The position numbers were made by a program, and so were the translations under genes. This document shows positions 1,317 through 9,171 of a DNA stretch of 9,171 nucleotides, piece by piece. The notes under the pieces are model-generated. The model saw only the letters and a program-made list of their open reading frames with translations, was not told where the DNA came from and did no database searches. The stretch's first letter is position 1. Each line of letters starts with the position of its first letter. Origin of the DNA: a virus (taxonomy: Duplodnaviria > Heunggongvirae > Uroviricota > Caudoviricetes); IMG/VR virus record IMGVR_UViG_2740892019_000003, one strand, 5' to 3'.

Positions 1317-1338
1317 TCCTCACGCTCCATAAACAACA

Positions 1339-1358
1339 AAACCGCCCGTAGGCGGTTT
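1339..1358 (-). terminator. Perfect 8-bp inverted repeat with 4-nt loop (AAACCGCC-UACG-GGCGGUUU on the minus-strand RNA) followed by a U-rich tract, in the I-J spacer; terminator-like hairpin
   Basis: Seen directly: plus 1339-1346 aaaccgcc, loop cgta, 1351-1358 ggcggttt. On the minus-strand transcript the stem is followed by UGUUGUUUAU; the loop UACG is a UNCG-type tetraloop. Lies between the I stop (1377-1379) and the J start (1316). Confidence 0.35.
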
Positions 1359-1376
1359 CACATAAAACATTTTGCA

Positions 1377-2048
1377 TCAGCGACCAATCACCACAACCTG
1401 ACCACCGTCCCCTTCGTCTGCCGTGCTGATCTCCTGAGAAACCACACGTGACCCCACGCGCATTTCACCGAACAGAACGGGCAGAACATTGCCCTGGGCA
1501 ACCATGTTATCCAGTGAGGAGAAATAGGTGTTCTGCTTACCGTTATCCGTACTGGTCGCTGTGGGCGTCCGGGCTTTCGGTGCCAGCATCTGCGCCACAC
1601 CGCCAAGCACCATACTGGCACCGAGAGAAAACAGGATGCCGGTCATACCACCGGCCCCAATGGCTGCCCCCCATGCTGCAAGGGTGGCTCCGGCGGTAAA
1701 GAATGATCCGGCAATGGCGGCTGCTCCCAGGACAATCTGGAATACACCACCTGACTTGGCCCCGGCGACTCTGGGAACAATATGAATCACAGCGCCATCA
1801 GGCAGAGTCTCATGTAACTGCGCCGTTAATCCGGACGTGCTGACATCCTGCCCGGCAATCCGTACCTGATACCAGCCGTCGCTCAGTTTCTGACGAAACG
1901 CCGGGAGCTGTGTGGCCAGTGCCCGGATGGCTTCAGCCCCCGTTTTCACACGAAGGTCGATGCGGCGACCAAATCGTTGTAAATCCCCGTAAAGGCAGAT
2001 GCGCGCCATGCCCGGTGACGCCAGAGGGAGTGTGTGCGTCGCTGCCAT
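1377..2048 (-). CDS. I: Tail assembly protein I (223 aa): N-terminal ubiquitin-like beta-grasp region ending ...VAGAKSGG, then a Gly/Ala-rich hydrophobic segment
   Basis: 223-aa ORF MAATHTLPLASPGMARICLYGDLQRFGRRIDLRVKTGAEAIRALATQLPAFRQKL... recognised as lambda gpI; same length as lambda I. Overlaps the 3' end of K by 103 nt in a different frame, as in lambda. Confidence 0.95.
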   Translation of the reverse strand: MAATHTLPLASPGMARICLYGDLQRFGRRIDLRVKTGAEAIRALATQLPAFRQKLSDGWYQVRIAGQDVSTSGLTAQLHETLPDGAVIHIVPRVAGAKSGGVFQIVLGAAAIAGSFFTAGATLAAWGAAIGAGGMTGILFSLGASMVLGGVAQMLAPKARTPTATSTDNGKQNTYFSSLDNMVAQGNVLPVLFGEMRVGSRVVSQEISTADEGDGGQVVVIGR

Positions 2049-2689
2049 TTGTCGGTATACCTCTCTCGTTTGCTCAGTTGTTCAGGAATATGGTGCAGCA
2101 GCTCGCCGTCACCACAGTAAATGGCGGCATGATTCGGCACCGATGAACCAAAACAGCACAGCAGCACATCGCCCGGCTGTGCCGTTGACAACGGCACCTG
2201 ATACAGCCCCGTCGCCTCCAGATTATCCAGATAAAGATTCTGGCCGTTACGCCACCAGTCATCCCCGCGATGAAAATCCGGCATCTCAATCCCCGCCAGA
2301 TGGTAAGCATCCCGGAACAGCGTGTAACAGTCCGTCACCCCGTGCTCAAAGCGCCGCCCGGTGAGATGCGGCACACAGCGGAACTTATGAATCTCACCCC
2401 GGCAGACCAGCCACCACGGCAAATCACTCTGCACCTGCAGCCGCCGGTCGGCCTCACTCAGCCAGGGAAGACCACCGGGGTGGCTGTGAACCAGCGCCAC
2501 AATCTCACCCTGCATCTCTGCCTGCAGCCAGTCCTCCGGAGCCATCCGGAAATACTCCTCCGGCTCACCGGAAATATTCACGCAGGGAAAATATCTTTCC
2601 CCCTCCGGCGTTCTCACCACGAAGCCGCACGACTCCGCTGGCGCACATTGCCGGGCGTGCGCCAGAATCGCTGATTCTGTCTCTGTCAT
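1946..2689 (-). CDS. K: Tail assembly protein K, long form 247 aa (JAB/MPN metallopeptidase motif HSHPGG...SEAD plus C-terminal NlpC/P60-type Cys/His); the classically annotated 199-aa form would start at the internal ATG at 2545
   Basis: ORF MTETESAILAHAR...HSHPGGLPWLSEADRRLQVQSDLPWWLV...GVTDCYTLFRDAYH...NHAAIYCGDGELLHH recognised as lambda gpK. ATG at 2687-2689 lies 5 nt after the L stop with no obvious Shine-Dalgarno; the internal ATG (2543-2545) has GGAGGAG 9 nt upstream (plus 2555-2561). Confidence 0.9.
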   Translation of the reverse strand: MTETESAILAHARQCAPAESCGFVVRTPEGERYFPCVNISGEPEEYFRMAPEDWLQAEMQGEIVALVHSHPGGLPWLSEADRRLQVQSDLPWWLVCRGEIHKFRCVPHLTGRRFEHGVTDCYTLFRDAYHLAGIEMPDFHRGDDWWRNGQNLYLDNLEATGLYQVPLSTAQPGDVLLCCFGSSVPNHAAIYCGDGELLHHIPEQLSKRERYTDKWQRRTHSLWRHRAWRASAFTGIYNDLVAASTFV

Positions 2690-3393: not shown

Positions 3394-3722
3394 CAGTTCA
3401 CCACCTGTTCAAACTCTGCGCTGAACTCAACACGCAACATACTGACCCGCGACGACCATTTTGCGCAGATCACCTTTATCTGCCGCCAGTCATAAGGCGG
3501 CGTCCACAGAAAGGCTTTCCAGCCTCCGTGCTCTGCCAGAAACGATTCCAGCGCCGTGGCCTCCCAACGGGGGACAGAAATCGTCACGCTGTACGTTTTC
3601 AGGTTGGCATTCAGCCCGGCAGGCGCGCGCTGGGAGTAACCATCACCAAAGCGCACCTTCCTGACGGAAGGGGCCGAAGCCACATCCATACCGGGTTTCA
3701 CTTTCCAGCGGAAGGTTTTCAT
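3393..3722 (-). CDS. M: Tail tip protein M (109 aa)
   Basis: ORF MKTFRWKVKPGMDVASAPSVRKVRFGDGYSQRAPAGLNANLKTY... recognised as lambda gpM; 109 aa. ATGA start/stop overlap with H (3719-3722); GGAGG 6 nt upstream. Confidence 0.95.
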   Translation of the reverse strand: MKTFRWKVKPGMDVASAPSVRKVRFGDGYSQRAPAGLNANLKTYSVTISVPRWEATALESFLAEHGGWKAFLWTPPYDWRQIKVICAKWSSRVSMLRVEFSAEFEQVVN

Positions 3723-6280
3723 CGTCCACCTCCGGAGAACAGGCCACCATCACGCATCTGTGTCTGAATTTCATCACGGGCACCCTTGCGGGCCATGTCA
3801 TACACCGCCTTCAGAGCAGCCGGACCTATCTGACCGTTCGTGCCGTCGTTATTAATCACCACATGGTTATTCTGCTCAAACTTCCCGGACGCCTGCGACC
3901 GGCTGTCCGCCAGGCTGCCCGGTGTACCGACATAACCACCGGTGGCATAGCCGCGCATCAGCCGGTAGAGATTCCCCACGCCAATCCGGCTGGTTGCCTC
4001 CTTCGTGAAGACAAATTCACCACGGTGAACAATCCCCGCAGGCTCATATTTGCCGCCGGTTCCCGTAAATCCCCCGGTCGCAAAATGGAATTTCGCCGCA
4101 GCTGCCTGAATGGCGGTACCGCCTGACGCGGATGCGCCGCCACCAACAGCCCCGCCAATGGCGCTGCCGATACTCCCGACAATCCCCACCATTGCCTGCT
4201 TAAGCAGAATTTCTGTCATCATGGACAGCACGGAACGGGTAAAGCTGCGCCAGTTCTGCTCACTGCCGGTCAGCATCGCCGCCATATTCTGTGCAATACC
4301 ATCAAAGGTCTGCGTGGCTGCACTTTTAACCTGCGACATACTGTCCGTGGCGCTCTCTTCCCACTCACTCCAGCCGGACCTGAGGCCTGCCATCCAGTTC
4401 CCGCGAAGCTGGTCTTCAGCCGCCCAGGTCTTTTTCTGCTCTGACATGACGTTATTCAGCGCCAGCGGATTATCGCCATACTGTTCCTTCAGACGCTGTT
4501 CCGTGGCTTCCCTCGCTGCCTGCCGGTCAGTCAGCCCCCGGCTTTTCGCATCAATGGCGGCCCGTTTTGCCCGTTGCTGCTGTGCGAATTTATCCGCCTG
4601 CTGCGCCAGCGCATTCAGGTGCTCCTGATACGTGACCTTATCGCCAAGTGCAGCCAGCTGGCGTTTGTACTCCAGCGTCTCGTCTTTATGCGCCAGCAGG
4701 GATTTCTCCTGTGCGGACAGCTGGCGACGTTGTGCCGCCTCCTCCAGTACCGCGAACTGACTTTCTGCCTTCCACAAATCCCGGCGCTGCTGGCTGATTT
4801 TCTCATTCGCTCCGGCATGCTTCTCCAGTGTCCGGAGTTCTGCCTGAAGCGTCAGCAGGGCAGCATGAGCATTGTCTTCCTGACGATCGCCCGCAGACAC
4901 CTTCACGCCGGACTGTTTCGGCTTTTTCAGCGTCGCTTCATAATCCTTTTTCGCCGCCGCCATCAGCGTGTTGTAATCTGCCTGCAGGATTTTCCCGTCT
5001 TTCAGTGCCTTGTTCAGTTCTTCCTGACGGGCGGTATATTTCTCCAGCGGCGTCTGCAGCCGTTCGTAAGCCTTCTGCGCCTCTTCGGTATATTTCAGCC
5101 GTGACGCTTCGGTATCGCTCTGCTGCTGCGCATTTTTGTCCTGTTGACTCTGCTGTTCAGCCTTCTTTCGGGCGGCTTCAAGCGCAAGACGGGCCTTTTC
5201 ACGATCATCCCAGTAACGCGCCCGCGCTTCATCGTTAACAAAATAATCATCCTTGCGCAGATTCCAGATGTCGTCTGCTTTCTTAAACGCAGCCTCTGCC
5301 TTAATCAGCATCTCCTGAGCGGTATCAGGACGACCAATATCCAGCACCGCATCCCACATGGATTTGAATGCCCGTGCTGTCCTGTCTGCCCAGGTCTCCA
5401 GCGTACCCATGTTCTCTTTCAGGCGGCGGGTCTGGTCATCAAACCCTTTCGTTGCGGCCTCGTTCGCCGCCTGCAATGCCCCGGCTTCATCGCCGGAACG
5501 CTGCAACTGAGCAACATACGCAATCTGCTCCGCCGTCACGTTATGGAACTGGCGCGCCATCGCCGTCAGCCCCGACGTCGGGTCAGTGGTCAGCTTCCCG
5601 AAGGCTTCAGCGACCTTGTCCACCTCCACGCCGGATGCAGAGGAGAAACGCGCCACACTCTGGCTGATGGATGCAATCTGAGCCTCACCGCTTACCCCCG
5701 CCTTAACCAGTGCACTGAGTGACTCGCTGGTCTGGTTAAACGTCAGCCCTGCCGCCTGCCCGGCTCTGGACAGGACCAGCATACGATCTGCCGTCAGACC
5801 CGACTGATTACCGGAAAGGACCAGCGTTTTGTTGAAATCGGACAGGGTTGAGTTACCCTGATACCAGGCATACGCCAGCGCACCGGTCGCCACCGCCAGC
5901 GAGGTGGCCCCGACCATCGGCAGGGTGATCGCACCGGCAAGCCCCCGGAACATGGGGATCATCCCGCCGAAGGAGTCCTTAACCTGACCACCCTGTTGCA
6001 GCAGGATCAGCCACGGGCTTTGCCCGCCTGCAAGCTGCGTGGCCACGTCGGTGAACTGTGCAGGCAGCATACGCATGGCGGCTTTATACTGCCCGACGGA
6101 AATCCCCGCTTTCTGTGCAGCCAGCGCCTGTCGGCTCAGCGACTGTTCAACGACTGCCGCTGTTTTTTTCGCATCACTTTCCGTACCGGAAAAATGACGC
6201 CTGACTCTGGCCATCTGCTCGTCAAATCTGGCCGCATCCAGACTTAAATCAACGACCAGATCGCCTACCGGTTCAGCCAT
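3719..6280 (-). CDS. H: Tail tape measure protein H (853 aa)
   Basis: 853-aa ORF MAEPVGDLVVDLSLDAARFDEQMARVRRHF... with a long charged, Ala/Gln/Lys-rich helical middle and a Gly-rich hydrophobic C-terminal segment (IGGAVGGGASASGG); recognised as lambda gpH at the same length. Start ATG 6278-6280 overlaps the end of T. Confidence 0.96.
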   Translation of the reverse strand: MAEPVGDLVVDLSLDAARFDEQMARVRRHFSGTESDAKKTAAVVEQSLSRQALAAQKAGISVGQYKAAMRMLPAQFTDVATQLAGGQSPWLILLQQGGQVKDSFGGMIPMFRGLAGAITLPMVGATSLAVATGALAYAWYQGNSTLSDFNKTLVLSGNQSGLTADRMLVLSRAGQAAGLTFNQTSESLSALVKAGVSGEAQIASISQSVARFSSASGVEVDKVAEAFGKLTTDPTSGLTAMARQFHNVTAEQIAYVAQLQRSGDEAGALQAANEAATKGFDDQTRRLKENMGTLETWADRTARAFKSMWDAVLDIGRPDTAQEMLIKAEAAFKKADDIWNLRKDDYFVNDEARARYWDDREKARLALEAARKKAEQQSQQDKNAQQQSDTEASRLKYTEEAQKAYERLQTPLEKYTARQEELNKALKDGKILQADYNTLMAAAKKDYEATLKKPKQSGVKVSAGDRQEDNAHAALLTLQAELRTLEKHAGANEKISQQRRDLWKAESQFAVLEEAAQRRQLSAQEKSLLAHKDETLEYKRQLAALGDKVTYQEHLNALAQQADKFAQQQRAKRAAIDAKSRGLTDRQAAREATEQRLKEQYGDNPLALNNVMSEQKKTWAAEDQLRGNWMAGLRSGWSEWEESATDSMSQVKSAATQTFDGIAQNMAAMLTGSEQNWRSFTRSVLSMMTEILLKQAMVGIVGSIGSAIGGAVGGGASASGGTAIQAAAAKFHFATGGFTGTGGKYEPAGIVHRGEFVFTKEATSRIGVGNLYRLMRGYATGGYVGTPGSLADSRSQASGKFEQNNHVVINNDGTNGQIGPAALKAVYDMARKGARDEIQTQMRDGGLFSGGGR

Positions 6281-7111
6281 ACCGGACTCCTCCTGCGATC
6301 CCTTCTGATACTGTCATCAGCATTACGTCATCCTCCGTCATGCCCGCCATATCCGGGGAAGCGGGGATAACTTCATTTCCGTCCGGGTCAAAGCGGACGC
6401 CTCCGGTAAGCCCTGCCGCTTTCTGCATCAGCACATCATCTTCAGGCTCTTCGTCATCCTCACGCCGGTTCAGCAAACTGAAATCCAGCGGATGCATATC
6501 CGGATCGCTGAAAAACAGGCTGAGCACAGTGTACGTCAGCCCGGAAAAGTGCATATCCAGCAGAACATCATGAAAATAATGGGTACTGTAAAAGCGGTGC
6601 CAGTCGGCATACTCCGTGGATGACATCCCGGCAAGCATGGCGCGCCAGTCAGGTCGCCCCATCTCTCGCGCCAGTTTCAGGGCAAAACTCAGCTCACCGT
6701 CGAACACTTTCCCGCAGAAACAGGCTCTGCAGGCCCGGCGTCCTCTGTCTGGTCAGGGGCATCATTCACCACAAACTCATACATTCCGGACAGCCGGTAC
6801 ACCACGTTTTCAGCATGAGAAATTGCCTCTGTAGGCCAGGTGGTAAGCACTTCCTGCTCAATCTGTTTAACGGCTTCATTCATGGACGGCATCTGCGTCT
6901 TCTTCGGATGGTTATGCCACAGGGACATCGCCACCACAAAAGCGCCGGTTCTGATGGCGTCTTCCACAGTAAACTTCCGGTTGCTGTCTGACTCCGCCTG
7001 TTCTGCCTGCCGTTTCATCAGGGCGAGATGCTCAATACGCTGTAGGGCTGACAGTTCAGAAAGCGTGACGGTCACGCCGTTATGTTCAAATGATTCGGTT
7101 TTCAGGAACAT
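6273..7111 (-). CDS. GT: Tail assembly chaperone GT, made by a programmed -1 ribosomal frameshift joining the G frame to the T frame at 6707-6713
   Basis: G frame (6689-7111) and T frame (stop at 6273-6275, open upstream past the slip site) overlap. Slippery heptamer G GGA AAG sits in the G zero frame (encoding Gly-Lys of ...SAGKCSTVS); after a -1 slip the reading continues GGG AAA GTG TTC GAC GGT GAG = G K V F D G E..., i.e. the track ORF 'MFDGELSF...' with its GTG read as Val. Confidence 0.85.
6287..6294 (-). promoter_or_regulatory. Shine-Dalgarno for H (AGGAGGAG), embedded in the 3' end of the T coding frame
   Basis: Plus 6287-6294 ctcctcct = AGGAGGAG on the minus strand, 6 nt upstream of the H ATG. 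Confidence 0.7.
6689..7111 (-). CDS. G: Tail assembly chaperone G (140 aa)
   Basis: ORF MFLKTESFEHNGVTVTLSELSALQRIEHLALMKRQAEQAESDSNRKF... recognised as lambda gpG; 140 aa. GGAGAG 6 nt upstream of the ATG (plus 7118-7123). Confidence 0.95.
   Translation of the reverse strand: MFLKTESFEHNGVTVTLSELSALQRIEHLALMKRQAEQAESDSNRKFTVEDAIRTGAFVVAMSLWHNHPKKTQMPSMNEAVKQIEQEVLTTWPTEAISHAENVVYRLSGMYEFVVNDAPDQTEDAGPAEPVSAGKCSTVS
6707..6713 (-). other. -1 programmed ribosomal frameshift slippery heptamer GGGAAAG (X XXY YYZ type)
   Basis: Plus 6707-6713 ctttccc = GGGAAAG on the minus strand. Lies 6 codons before the G stop, in the correct phase (G GGA AAG in the G frame). Confidence 0.85.
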
Positions 7112-7126
7112 CGCTGACTCTCCGGA

Positions 7127-7867
7127 TTAGCTGTCGGTGACGGTGATTTCTGCAACGGCAGCAAACTCACCATTACCGGATACGACCGGAATGTTGACCT
7201 TGCCTGCAGCAACGCCGTTCACGGTGATGGTCATACCACTGACCGACACGGTGGCTTTTGTTTTATCCGCAGACACCGCACGGAAGCTCTTGTCGGTTGC
7301 GCCTTCCGGCTGGAATGCCACGGTCAGCGTGGTGCTCTGCCCTTTCACTACGGAAGCACTGGCTGGCGTTACCGTCATGCCGGTGGCCGCCGTCACCGTG
7401 CTGCGATCTTCTGCCATCGACGGGCGTCCCACATTGGTGACCTTCACCGTGCGGGTAATCACTTCCTTCGCCGTCACCGCCTTACCGATACTGCTGACCC
7501 AGCCACGGAACACATCGACCGTGCCGTTCGGGAAGCGGATTTTATAGGCACGGGTATCACCTTCATTAAACCACGCCAGCAGCGCCTGCTGCCCCTGCTC
7601 TCCGGGCATCCACGCCAGCGTGAAGCTGGTATCTCCGGCTGACTTCTGCCCCTGTCCGGTCGCGGTCCAGTCCGCATCTTCATCATCGAGATAACTGTCG
7701 TCATAGGACTCAGCGGTCAGTTCGCCGGGCGTCAGGTCTTTAACTTTAGCCAGACGCGACCAGTCAACGTCTGAAAGCGGGTTCGCATAAGGGTCACCGT
7801 TCCCCTTATAAACCCACAGTGTGGTCCCGGCACCTTTCACCGGCATTGTAGGATTTGGTACAGGCAT
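7127..7867 (-). CDS. V: Major tail tube protein V (246 aa) with C-terminal Ig-like (Big_2-type) domain
   Basis: Track ORF 7127-7897 begins at an upstream ATG inside U. The start matching lambda gpV ([22 protein letters not shown]...) is the ATG at 7865-7867, preceded by GAGGA (plus 7872-7876) and giving 246 aa. C-terminal ~90 aa are Thr/Val/Ser-rich beta-strand-like sequence ([33 protein letters not shown]...). Confidence 0.93.
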
Positions 7868-7874
7868 ATCGTCC

Positions 7875-8270
7875 TCACATTTCATAGGTAATGACATAAG
7901 TCAGATCGGCTGAACTCCACAGGCCCGCATCATCGTCGCGCCGGTAGTCATAGCCACTGGCCACCATACTGGTGATCAAATCTGACAGTGCCGGGATATC
8001 GCTCATCACCGGATAAATCCGGGACTCCATCCACGAATCCAGCTCTGAATCCGGCACCTGAGCAGGCAGGAAAACTTCAATATGCAGCTCCGCCTGCCAG
8101 GTATCGCTGTCCAGCTCTTCGCCCGTGTATTCAGCGCCGGTGAGATAAACGGCAATTGCCGGAAAATCCGCCTCATCAAAAACAGCGGGGCGACCATCAA
8201 AAAGCGTCGCCCCGGTGTCATGCTTCTCCAGTGCATCCAGTACGGCTGCACGGAGTTCAGTATGTTTCAT
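7875..8270 (-). CDS. U: Tail terminator protein U (131 aa)
   Basis: [56 protein letters not shown]... recognised as lambda gpU; 131 aa. 4-nt overlap with the Z stop (8267-8270). Confidence 0.95.
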
Positions 8271-8856: not shown

Positions 8857-9171
8857 TCAGCGGCGACGGTTAACGGCAGGCGGTACGCCCCGCCCAAGCC
8901 AGAGATGACAGCTTCCGCCATCATCCGGCGAAATCCGGTCTATCCAGAAGTTTTCCTCACCGATGGTCAGCGTGTCGCCGCGCCGCAGCTGCCGCACATC
9001 ATCAGTCCGGACAAACAGGGACGGGCTGGAGCCTTCAACGCGCACGCCCTGTCCGGCATAGCTGATATTTTCAGGGTCATCAAAAACACCACGTATCACA
9101 GCACCGGACTGCTCACCGGATGTCATGGTGGCTGACGTTCCCATGTACCCGCGTATCGTTTCATCGGCGCA
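8857..9171 (-). CDS. FII: Head-tail joining protein FII, C-terminal ~104 codons (partial; true start lies beyond the right edge of the window)
   Basis: Track ORF begins at an internal Met (MGTSATMTSGEQSGAVIRGVFDDPENISYAGQGVRVEGSSPSLFVRTDD...). The same frame stays open upstream to the window end (...ADETIRGY-MGTSAT), matching the C-terminal part of lambda gpFII. Stop TGA at 8857-8859. Confidence 0.9.
   Translation of the reverse strand, partial: CADETIRGYMGTSATMTSGEQSGAVIRGVFDDPENISYAGQGVRVEGSSPSLFVRTDDVRQLRRGDTLTIGEENFWIDRISPDDGGSCHLWLGRGVPPAVNRRR

What the first reader, a model, noticed from the sequence alone, without database searches (positions are those of the whole stretch)
1377..2689. 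K/I gene pair resembles a ubiquitin-like protein plus JAB deubiquitinase-type peptidase cassette inside the tail operon
K carries a JAMM/MPN zinc-peptidase signature (H68-x-H70-x7-S78-x2-D81, nt 2447-2488) with candidate upstream Glu residues (E29/E31), plus NlpC/P60-like Cys121 (DCYTLF) and His188 (NHAAIY). The overlapping downstream gene I encodes a small N-terminal domain ending in Gly-Gly (residues 100-101, nt 1746-1751; ...PRVAGAKSGG) followed by a hydrophobic Gly/Ala-rich tail. That is the arrangement expected if the JAB domain of K cleaves I after the di-glycine. Comparative-genomics work has proposed this for lambda K/I, but to my knowledge the biochemistry is still thin, making it the most mechanistically interesting part of the window.
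Basis: partly seen in the sequence, partly recalled or inferred. Interest (0 to 1): 0.55.

Follow-up and report, generated by a model that had tools for sequence, protein, structure and literature searches.

The report
Lambda tail K/I protease–ubiquitin-like pair
These are the phage lambda tail genes K and I: K carries a deubiquitinase-type protease that trims a ubiquitin-like cap off I during tail-tip assembly, an idea published in 2006 and now reported to be confirmed experimentally, so the finding is correct but not new.

Summary
The window is a lambdoid tail operon on the minus strand (FII'-Z-U-V-G/T-H-M-L-K-I-J'), about 96-97% identical to lambda-like phages. K (1946-2689) has a Prok-JAB domain and an NlpC/P60 domain, both above Pfam cut-offs. 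I (1377-2048) has an N-terminal beta-grasp ubiquitin-like (Ubl) domain whose model matches SAMP1, MoaD and ubiquitin. Behind it come a hydrophobic segment and the C-terminal plug domain seen in solved lambda tails.

The interpretation matches the 2006 prediction of Iyer, Burroughs and Aravind. A 2025 conference report says the Davidson lab showed gpK cleaves the Ubl from gpI. [quoted passage not shown]

Corrections:
- The catalytic Glu is E19, not E29/E31.
- The NlpC/P60 His is H187, not H188, and the third triad residue is H199.
- The family-conserved Ubl C-terminus is G96-A97, not G100-G101, so the likelier scissile bond is A97|K98.

JAB and Ubl co-occurred in 18 of 18 diverse phages. One cyanophage fuses JAB, Ubl and plug in one protein and has no NlpC/P60 domain. 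What the NlpC/P60 half does remains open. Novelty: already known.

The parts
1946..2689 (-). Gene K (247 aa plus stop), a two-domain tail-tip assembly peptidase. Its ATG lies 5 nt after the stop of L.
   Evidence: ORF list and translation. 96-97% nt identity to K of lambda-like phages.
2375..2680 (-). JAB/MPN+ (JAMM) zinc-peptidase domain, K residues 4-105.
   Evidence: Pfam PF14464, E 4.6e-14. PDB 2KKS, E 1e-6. The AF2 model matches PfJAMM1 (5LD9, and 5LDA with SAMP2), Rpn11, CSN5 and AMSH.
2633..2635 (-). Codon of E19, the catalytic glutamate of the JAMM motif (P-A-E-S-C-G).
   Evidence: Aligns with E of 'NEACG' in 2KKS. Conserved in 19 of 19 sequences, whereas E29/E31 vary.
2447..2488 (-). 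JAMM core motif H68-S-H70-x7-S78-x2-D81 (zinc ligands plus Ser).
   Evidence: Conserved in 19 of 19 sequences.
2018..2359 (-). NlpC/P60 (C40) papain-like peptidase domain, K residues 111-224. The triad is C121 (2327-2329), H187 (2129-2131) and H199 (2093-2095).
   Evidence: Pfam PF00877, E 1.9e-12. The model matches MepS/Spr, LytE and Acd33800. The triad is conserved in 18 of 18 sequences with the domain.
1377..2048 (-). Gene I (223 aa plus stop), precursor of the tail-tip plug protein.
   Evidence: E 6.5e-138 to lambda gpI in PDB 8IYK, 8IYL, 8K35 and 8XCG.
1946..2048 (-). 103-nt K/I overlap in different frames (K residues 214-247, I residues 1-34).
   Evidence: Single-base frameshifts here explain the singleton K-I 'fusion' proteins in databases.
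1758..2009 (-). Ubiquitin-like beta-grasp domain of I, residues 14-97 (ThiS/MoaD/SAMP class).
   Evidence: Pfam PF06805 matches residues 14-97. The AF2 model has a beta-beta-alpha-beta-beta-beta topology with pLDDT 64-71. Foldseek hits: SAMP1 3PO0 at E 1.7e-4 and TM 0.70, then MoaD, CysO, Urm1, ubiquitin and SUMO.
1758..1763 (-). G96-A97, the family-conserved C-terminal dipeptide of the Ubl. The proposed scissile bond is A97|K98.
   Evidence: G96 in 56 of 60 and position 97 as A/S/G in 57 of 60 diverse homologues. G96 in 19 of 19 sequences. Aligns with the terminal GG of MoaD and SAMP1. The Pfam domain ends at residue 97.
1746..1751 (-). It lies in a short variable connector (K98-S-G-G101).
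   Evidence: G100 in 31 of 60 and G101 in 46 of 60. Absent in MED4-184 and Salmonella S135. Residue 101 is reported as resolved in the closed tail.
1650..1745 (-). Hydrophobic Gly/Ala-rich segment of I, residues 102-133. Structural papers predict helices H1 and H2 (the first helix falls here) to be membrane-inserting.
   Evidence: Sequence. Helices 103-118 and 123-131 in the model, at low confidence. Literature.
1380..1649 (-). C-terminal structural domain of I, residues 134-223. It forms the trimeric plug in the tail-tip lumen that holds the C-terminal coiled coil of gpH.
   Evidence: PDB 9E7M chains cover residues 133-222. Modelled as 135-223 and 134-222 in virions. tblastn finds this domain in 806 phage records.

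Best explanation
K and I are the lambda-type tail-tip assembly pair. I is made as a precursor with four parts. Residues 14-97 form a ThiS/MoaD-like ubiquitin-fold domain. Residues 98-101 are a short connector. Residues 102-133 are hydrophobic. Residues 134-223 form the plug domain that ends up as a trimer inside the tail tip, holding the C-terminus of the tape measure protein. K is an assembly-only enzyme that is absent from virions. Its N-terminal JAMM zinc-peptidase domain (E19, H68, H70, S78, D81) recognises the Ubl as a deubiquitinase recognises ubiquitin, and cuts the Ubl off at its C-terminal tail. The cut is most probably after G96-A97 and less probably after G100-G101. The cut is reported to happen only after I has docked with its partners (J and L), so removal of the Ubl acts as a one-way checkpoint that licenses the next assembly steps. 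Shown here: the domains, folds, catalytic residues, co-occurrence and fusion. Taken from the literature: that cleavage occurs, and that it depends on assembly state. Inferred: the exact scissile bond and the steric-shield or solubilising role of the Ubl. The role of K's second domain, an NlpC/P60 domain with an intact Cys-His-His triad, is not explained.
For: Both K domains are significant in Pfam and I matches Lambda_tail_I. The K model matches JAMM1 (including its complex with the Ubl SAMP2), Rpn11 and CSN5, and also NlpC/P60 enzymes. The N-domain model of I matches SAMP1, MoaD, CysO, Urm1 and ubiquitin. The JAMM residues are conserved in 19 of 19 sequences. In 18 phage loci chosen only by the C-domain of I, JAB and Ubl are both present in 18 of 18. 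Prochlorococcus phage MED4-184 encodes JAB-Ubl-plug as one ORF and has no K-type NlpC/P60 domain in its whole genome. Solved lambda tails show only the C-terminal part of gpI and no gpK. The only gpI peptide in the virion mass spectrometry has the length of the C-terminal tryptic peptide 202-223. Iyer et al. 2006 predicted this mechanism (PMC1779556). A conference summary reports that gpK cleaves the Ubl of gpI, and only after gpI engages the tip complex (PMC12908700). [quoted passage not shown] For the A97|K98 site: conservation, alignment to the MoaD and SAMP1 termini and residue 101 being resolved in the tail.
Against: I found no primary research paper with the lambda cleavage data, only a meeting summary. 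The F-pyocin authors did not identify the protease, and they saw the N-terminal region removed by host proteases when the protein was expressed alone. The I model is of low to moderate confidence: pLDDT 46 overall and 64-71 in the Ubl. The co-occurrence sample contained no locus lacking JAB or Ubl, so joint loss could not be tested directly. A K-I complex could not be modelled or inspected with the tools available.
Confidence: 0.85

Rival explanations
1. The mechanism is the same, but the cut is exactly where the reader put it: after G100-G101, ubiquitin-style, giving mature I that starts at V102.
For: JAMM enzymes classically cut after Gly-Gly (established knowledge). G101 is fairly common, in 46 of 60 diverse homologues and 16 of 19 sequences. 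The hydrophobic segment begins at V102.
Against: G100 occurs in only 31 of 60 homologues. MED4-184 and Salmonella S135 have no Gly after the G-A dipeptide. G96-A97, not G100-G101, aligns with the MoaD and SAMP1 termini, and the Pfam domain ends at residue 97. gpI is reported as resolved from residue 101 in the closed tail.
Confidence: 0.25
2. The papain-like NlpC/P60 domain of K, not the JAB domain, removes the N-domain of I. The JAB domain would then only bind the Ubl or have another substrate.
For: The C121/H187/H199 triad is invariant in 18 of 18 sequences with the domain, so the domain is probably an active peptidase without an assigned substrate. Some papain-fold enzymes are deubiquitinases (established knowledge).
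Against: MED4-184 keeps JAB fused to Ubl-plug and has no NlpC/P60 domain anywhere in its genome. The JAMM catalytic residues are equally invariant. The RcGTA homologue has only NlpC/P60, degrades peptidoglycan, and RcGTA has no gpI match. The talk summary ascribes cleavage to the deubiquitinating domain.
Confidence: 0.05
3. The Ubl domain is not removed. It stays attached as a flexible, unresolved part of virion gpI, and K acts chiefly as a peptidoglycan hydrolase or chaperone.
For: The N-terminal residues of gpI are simply unseen in cryo-EM maps. One group speculated that the unseen N-domain could be a cell-wall enzyme. RcGTA g14 degrades peptidoglycan.
Against: gpK is not detected in virions. 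None of the readily detectable tryptic peptides of the Ubl was found in virion mass spectrometry. The N-domain has a beta-grasp fold, not a hydrolase fold. The N-terminal region of F-pyocin PA0640 is lost on maturation. The talk reports cleavage.
Confidence: 0.05
4. The Ubl of I is a true modifier. After release it would be activated and conjugated to another tail or host protein, with K's JAB acting as the maturing or deconjugating enzyme.
For: The fold class (MoaD, SAMP, Urm1) includes conjugated modifiers. Bacterial Ubl-conjugation systems that act on phage tail fibres exist (established knowledge, not tested here).
Against: The window holds only the lambda tail genes FII, Z, U, V, G/T, H, M, L, K, I and J. 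None of them is an E1-like or E2-like gene. The conserved terminus is G-A or G-S rather than G-G. No conjugates have been reported.
Confidence: 0.02

Closest known systems
Phage lambda gpK/gpI (TAPK/TAPI of Iyer, Burroughs & Aravind 2006; PDB 8IYK, 8K35, 9E7M for gpI)
   Same: These are orthologues. The nucleotide identity is about 96-97% and gpI matches at E 6.5e-138. Lengths (247 and 223 aa), the gene overlap, the domains and the operon order are the same. The mechanism was predicted for exactly this pair.
   Different: There are only a few substitutions, for example Q67 versus R, the 161-163 stretch, and F192 versus Y in I. Nothing differs functionally.
Pseudomonas F-type pyocin PA0639 (gpK-like) / PA0640 (gpI-like plug)
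   Same: The pair sits in the same position in a lambda-like tail module. Only the C-terminal part of PA0640 is in the particle. Its N-terminal region is present in stalled tips and removed on maturation. Deleting PA0639 gives tip-less tubes. PA0640 matches my Ubl profile at E 8e-11, with 'IVPLVIGSK' at the Ubl end.
   Different: It is a tailocin, not a phage. The protease was not identified. The Ubl ends in G-S rather than G-A.
Archaeal and bacterial JAMM-Ubl pairs: PfJAMM1-SAMP2, HvJAMM1-SAMP1, Mec+/CysO, QbsD/QbsE
   Same: A small prokaryotic JAMM peptidase acts at the C-terminal tail of a ThiS/MoaD-class beta-grasp protein. These are the best fold matches for both partners. Iyer et al. place the phage JAB domains in the same clade as those of sulfur-carrier operons.
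   Different: Those Ubls are free modifiers or sulfur carriers that end in Gly-Gly and work with E1-like enzymes. Here the Ubl is a disposable pro-domain fused to a structural protein, it ends in Gly-Ala or Gly-Ser, and no E1 is present.
Eukaryotic ubiquitin-fusion precursors (polyubiquitin, Ub-ribosomal protein fusions) processed by deubiquitinases
   Same: A ubiquitin-fold domain is translated in frame with a cargo protein and is removed by a dedicated peptidase at the Ubl C-terminus.
   Different: In eukaryotes the released ubiquitin is the reusable product. Here the cargo (the plug) is the product, the Ubl is presumably discarded, and cleavage is gated by assembly state.
RcGTA g14 (Rcc01697) tail peptidase
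   Same: It is the homologue of the NlpC/P60 half of K, sits at the same operon position, and is needed for tail formation.
   Different: It is 150 aa with no JAB domain. It has peptidoglycan-degrading activity and is possibly packaged in the tail channel. RcGTA has no gpI match.

Membership tests
JAMM/MPN+ metallopeptidase (Pfam Prok-JAB PF14464) | Profile match above the curated cut-off | tested here: met
   52.7 bits against a cut-off of 25, E 4.6e-14, K residues 4-105.
JAMM/MPN+ metallopeptidase (Pfam Prok-JAB PF14464) | Complete E...H-x-H-x7-S-x2-D catalytic motif | tested here: met
   E19, H68, H70, S78 and D81 are present and identical in 19 of 19 sequences. E19 aligns with the Glu of 2KKS.
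JAMM/MPN+ metallopeptidase (Pfam Prok-JAB PF14464) | MPN fold | tested here: met
   AF2 model with pLDDT about 90 over residues 1-40 and 51-70. Foldseek hits: PfJAMM1 5LD9 at TM 0.65 and rmsd 2.7, plus Rpn11, CSN5 and AMSH.
JAMM/MPN+ metallopeptidase (Pfam Prok-JAB PF14464) | Zinc-dependent cleavage at the C-terminus of a Ubl | not testable with these tools
   Reported for gpK and gpI only in a conference summary.
NlpC/P60 (C40) papain-like peptidase (PF00877) | Profile match above the curated cut-off | tested here: met
   47.5 bits against a cut-off of 23, E 1.9e-12, K residues 111-224, full profile length.
NlpC/P60 (C40) papain-like peptidase (PF00877) | Cys-His-His/polar catalytic triad | tested here: met
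   C121, H187 and H199 are invariant in 18 of 18 sequences with the domain and in the close homologues.
NlpC/P60 (C40) papain-like peptidase (PF00877) | Peptidoglycan stem-peptide endopeptidase activity | not testable with these tools
   Shown for the RcGTA homologue g14. Unknown for gpK, which is absent from virions.
ThiS/MoaD/SAMP-type ubiquitin-like beta-grasp proteins | Beta-grasp fold | tested here: met
   The model has the secondary-structure order beta-beta-alpha-beta-beta-beta. Foldseek hits: SAMP1, MoaD, CysO, Urm1 and ubiquitin at E 1.7e-4 to 1e-2 and TM 0.67-0.76. Model confidence is only moderate.
ThiS/MoaD/SAMP-type ubiquitin-like beta-grasp proteins | C-terminal Gly-Gly directly after the last strand | tested here: inconclusive
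   The equivalent dipeptide is G96-A97, which is G-[A/S/G] in 57 of 60 homologues. The later G100-G101 is poorly conserved. The alignment to MoaD and SAMP1 is weak.
ThiS/MoaD/SAMP-type ubiquitin-like beta-grasp proteins | Partner E1-like adenylating enzyme; use as a sulfur carrier or conjugated modifier | tested here: not met
   All genes in the window are lambda tail genes and none is E1-like or E2-like. It therefore shares the fold and is processed like a Ubl, but it is not a modifier system.
Lambda tail assembly protein I family (PF06805 plus the plug domain) | Profile match, plus the C-terminal plug domain seen in solved tails | tested here: met
   97.5 bits against a cut-off of 23.8. E 6.5e-138 to 8IYK chain I, and residues 133-222 match 9E7M.

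The most novel reading that the evidence does not exclude
K's second domain, the NlpC/P60 peptidase, has a triad that is invariant across very divergent phages, yet K is not packaged into lambda virions. It may be a second assembly protease rather than a cell-wall enzyme. One candidate job is the cut that converts the tape measure protein gpH into gpH* and gpHC in its glycine-rich C-terminal region. That cut lies next to the gpI plug, and its protease has never been identified.
Probability: 0.1. Interest if true: 0.6.

Novelty: already known. Interest (0 to 1): 0.22.

Why it matters
The K/I pair is a clean prokaryotic example of a ubiquitin-fold domain and a JAMM peptidase working as a unit without any conjugation machinery. 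That bears on how the ubiquitin system arose. It also shows how an irreversible proteolytic step can enforce the order of assembly in a phage tail or tailocin. These points are already in the literature: the prediction dates from 2006, and experimental work was reported in 2025-2026. This window adds no new biology. The useful residue from this check is a set of corrections: E19, H187/H199, and G96-A97 as the conserved terminus. There are also two sharp open questions: the exact scissile bond, and the substrate of the NlpC/P60 domain.

Tried and rejected
- Literature searches for a primary paper or preprint on gpK/gpI cleavage found only the 2006 prediction, structural papers and a meeting summary. 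One search was swamped by radar-jamming papers.
- Database proteins carrying JAB, NlpC and Lambda_tail_I together looked like natural K-I fusions. They are singleton frameshift artefacts within the 103-nt overlap.
- P0286 (2783 aa, 23 matched stretches) looked like a poly-Ubl protein. It is a low-complexity repeat protein with no hit to any of my four family HMMs.
- The search for related loci with the diverse plug-domain alignment failed because no block was conserved enough. I used tblastn against annotated phages instead.
- A sequence profile of the Ubl domain does not reach MoaD significantly in PDB (E 1.4). Only the fold search does.
- Record counts per domain (JAB 1641, NlpC 1748, plug 806, Ubl 325) differ mainly because of sensitivity, so they cannot serve as a strict co-occurrence test. 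They do show that JAB-less K proteins are rare in phages.
- The second Gly-Gly of I (133-134), just before the residues resolved in some maps, lies in a variable, gapped region, so I did not pursue it as a second processing site.
- A K-I complex could not be modelled.
Full report
**What the window is.** The six-frame ORF list shows a single minus-strand operon. The minus-strand reading of 1300-2800 and the translation of 1-1316 confirm it. The gene order is FII (C-terminal part, 8857-9144), Z, U, V, G/T, H (853 aa), M, L, K (1946-2689), I (1377-2048) and the N-terminus of J (from 1316). The K-I stretch is 96-97% identical in nucleotides to lambda-like Escherichia phages such as ev207, Lambda_4C10, phage 21 and DE3. 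There it is annotated as tail tip assembly proteins K and I. Pfam identifies L and M as well.

**Checking the observation.**
- H68-x-H70-x7-S78-x2-D81 is at nt 2447-2488.
- C121 lies in DCYTLF.
- G100-G101 is at nt 1746-1751.
- The K/I overlap is 103 nt.

The only slip is that the His in NHAAIY is residue 187, not 188. The signatures are not chance. K passes Pfam's curated thresholds for Prok-JAB (52.7 bits, E 4.6e-14, residues 4-105) and NLPC_P60 (47.5 bits, E 1.9e-12, residues 111-224). I passes for Lambda_tail_I (97.5 bits, residues 14-97).

**Folds.** An AlphaFold2 model of K (pLDDT 80) matches solved structures through both domains. The N-domain matches Pyrococcus JAMM1 (alone and bound to the ubiquitin-like SAMP2), Rpn11, CSN5, AMSH and the bacterial JAB protein 2KKS. 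The C-domain matches MepS/Spr, LytE and other NlpC/P60 enzymes. The I model is poor overall (pLDDT 46), but residues 14-92 reach 64-71 with a beta-grasp order of elements. Foldseek places that part with SAMP1, MoaD, CysO, Urm1, ubiquitin and SUMO (E 1.7e-4 and up, TM 0.67-0.76 on the target). The ubiquitin-like assignment is therefore supported by fold. A sequence profile alone does not reach MoaD (E 1.4).

**Catalytic residues.** In 30 close homologues, E19, C121, H187 and H199 are invariant and H68, H70, S78 and D81 are at least 90% conserved. I then took 18 phage loci from Ralstonia, Pasteurella, Burkholderia, Serratia, Acinetobacter, Moraxella, Pseudomonas, Klebsiella, Salmonella, Cronobacter, Synechococcus, Prochlorococcus and E. 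coli phages. In all 19 sequences, counting the window, E19, C21, H68, H70, S78 and D81 are identical. D120, C121, H187 and H199 are identical in all 18 that have the domain. The catalytic glutamate is E19 in the E-x-C-G motif, which aligns with the Glu of 2KKS. The spacing E19...H68-x-H70...D81 is the classical JAMM arrangement (established knowledge).

**Where the Ubl ends.** I compared 60 full-length representatives that are less than 60% identical to this I.

| Position | Conservation |
|---|---|
| P92 | 60/60 |
| G96 | 56/60 |
| 97 (Ala, Ser or Gly) | 57/60 |
| G100 | 31/60 |
| G101 | 46/60 |

In the 18 loci G96 is universal. Two phages, MED4-184 ('IVSGAWFWIAA') and Salmonella S135 ('VEGAISAAAA'), have no glycine after the G-A dipeptide. 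Profile alignments put I 'HIVPRVAG' opposite MoaD 'FFPPVTG' and SAMP1 'LFPPVSG'. That makes G96-A97 the counterpart of their terminal Gly-Gly. The Pfam domain also stops at residue 97. Ge & Wang report gpI as resolved 'from position 101 onward' in the closed tail. I therefore think the scissile bond is more probably A97|K98 than G101|V102. This is an inference, not a demonstration.

**Functional coupling.** The 18 loci were chosen only by the C-terminal plug domain of I. JAB and Ubl are both present in 18 of 18, and NlpC/P60 in 17 of 18. The exception is Prochlorococcus phage MED4-184. It has one annotated ORF that reads JAB-linker-Ubl-hydrophobic segment-plug. Its whole 38.3-kb genome has no K-type NlpC/P60 domain on either strand. 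This makes JAB plus Ubl the minimal unit, and it argues against the NlpC/P60 domain being the enzyme that processes I. Across 50,697 phage records the JAB and NlpC/P60 halves of K hit 1641 and 1748 records, with almost the same per-genus counts. JAB-less K proteins are therefore rare in phages. K and I need not be adjacent, as in Ralstonia YO382_1, Moraxella Mcat18, a Pseudomonas phage and mEpX2. The sample held no locus lacking JAB or Ubl, so joint loss was not tested directly. RcGTA fits the pattern: it has a JAB-less g14 and no gpI match.

**What is already known.**
- Iyer, Burroughs & Aravind (2006, PMC1779556) described TAPI as a ThiS/MoaD-like Ubl with a conserved C-terminal glycine. They described TAPK as JAB plus NlpC/P60. 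They predicted that the JAB domain releases the Ubl by cutting at that glycine.
- Cryo-EM papers from 2023 to 2025 show only the C-terminal part of gpI, as a trimeric plug holding the C-terminus of gpH. None of them finds gpK in the virion.
- The virion mass-spectrometry table lists one gpI peptide at 9.87% coverage. That figure matches only the 22-residue C-terminal tryptic peptide 202-223. None of the four well-behaved Ubl peptides was seen.
- A report of the October 2025 phage conference states that the Davidson lab showed gpK cleaves the Ubl from gpI. [quoted passage not shown] Loss of the gpK homologue PA0639 gives tip-less tubes. The authors call this a proteolytic checkpoint but do not identify the protease.
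- I found no full paper with the lambda biochemistry.

**Mechanism.** I is a precursor. Its Ubl domain is recognised by the JAMM domain of K and is clipped off once I sits in the J-I-L tip precursor. The result is an irreversible step that licenses docking of M, H and the tube. K then leaves. Whether the Ubl acts as a steric shield, as a solubiliser of the hydrophobic segment 102-133, or as a docking handle for K is not known. The intact, invariant Cys-His-His triad of the NlpC/P60 domain remains unexplained. Three options are open:
- Peptidoglycan hydrolysis, as shown for RcGTA g14, although gpK is not packaged in lambda virions.
- A purely structural role in assembly.
- A second proteolytic substrate, such as gpH, whose processing protease is unknown.

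**Verdict.** It restates a published prediction that has since been addressed experimentally, in a window that is nearly lambda itself. Novelty: already known. Interest is low, except for the two open details above.

Noticed in passing
window 1336-1361 (minus strand), between the I stop (1377-1379) and the J start (ATG at 1316): A terminator-like hairpin (11 pairs, 5 of them G-C, loop of 4) followed by a T-rich run sits inside the late tail operon just upstream of J's Shine-Dalgarno sequence. Phage HK225 has an annotated rho-independent terminator at the equivalent place before its central tail fibre gene (L013 3515-3539).
   Followed up: partly
window 2543-2545 (K residue M49) versus 2687-2689 (M1): Many database entries, and a 2020 review, treat K as a 199-aa protein starting at M49. 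That start removes the first 48 residues of the JAB domain, including the catalytic E19. Conservation from residue 4 onward shows the 247-aa form is correct. The 199-aa clusters carry only the NlpC/P60 Pfam label (P0178, P0181, P0183, P0184).
   Followed up: partly
window 2007-2048 (I residues 1-14): The start of I is ambiguous. ATG-1 has a GAGAGG box about 11 nt upstream and M14 has none. Most distant homologues, however, begin at the position of M14, right at strand 1 of the Ubl, and a large NCBI cluster (P0013, 210 aa, 5268 members) is annotated from M14. The first 13 codons lie in the overlap with K, so their conservation may be due to K.
   Followed up: partly
L009 / L019 (Prochlorococcus phage MED4-184, NC_020847.1, 33706-34674): A natural single-ORF fusion of JAB, Ubl, hydrophobic segment and plug. 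The whole genome has no K-type NlpC/P60 domain. Two long J-like ORFs downstream (34668-35300 and 35267-38326) are not annotated in the record.
   Followed up: yes
L017 (Synechococcus phage S-H1) 1831-2238 and 2217-2609: The JAB and NlpC/P60 halves of the K homologue lie in two separate, slightly overlapping ORFs in different frames. This could be a true split, a frameshift or a sequencing error. The I homologue there carries a long C-terminal extension; the stop-to-stop ORF is 435 aa.
   Followed up: no
proteins P0136, P0157, P0212, P0239, P0010, P0012: Apparent K-I fusion proteins in public databases are singleton products of frameshifts inside the K/I overlap. P0001 and P0004 carry internal duplications of I that look like assembly artefacts.
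   Followed up: yes
window 3719-6280 (H, minus strand), C-terminal glycine-rich stretch '...GSAIGGAVGGGASASGG...': The tape measure protein has the glycine-rich region in which lambda gpH is cut to gpH* and gpHC. The literature says neither the site nor the protease is known.
   Followed up: no
window 7127-7897 and 6273-7111 (minus strand): The V ORF is listed from an upstream ATG (256 aa), and the lambda-type start is probably M11 (MPVPNPT...). G (6689-7111) and T (6273-6707) show the overlapping arrangement expected for the G/G-T frameshift chaperone pair.
   Followed up: no
PDB 9L9P chain A (199 aa, 'Putative tail assembly protein'): A solved structure of a gpI homologue deposited as a single chain. 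It matches both the Ubl profile (E 4e-13, Ubl ending 'IVPIPTGSKTGG') and full-length I. If the Ubl is ordered there, it would be the first experimental structure of this domain. I could not inspect it.
   Followed up: no
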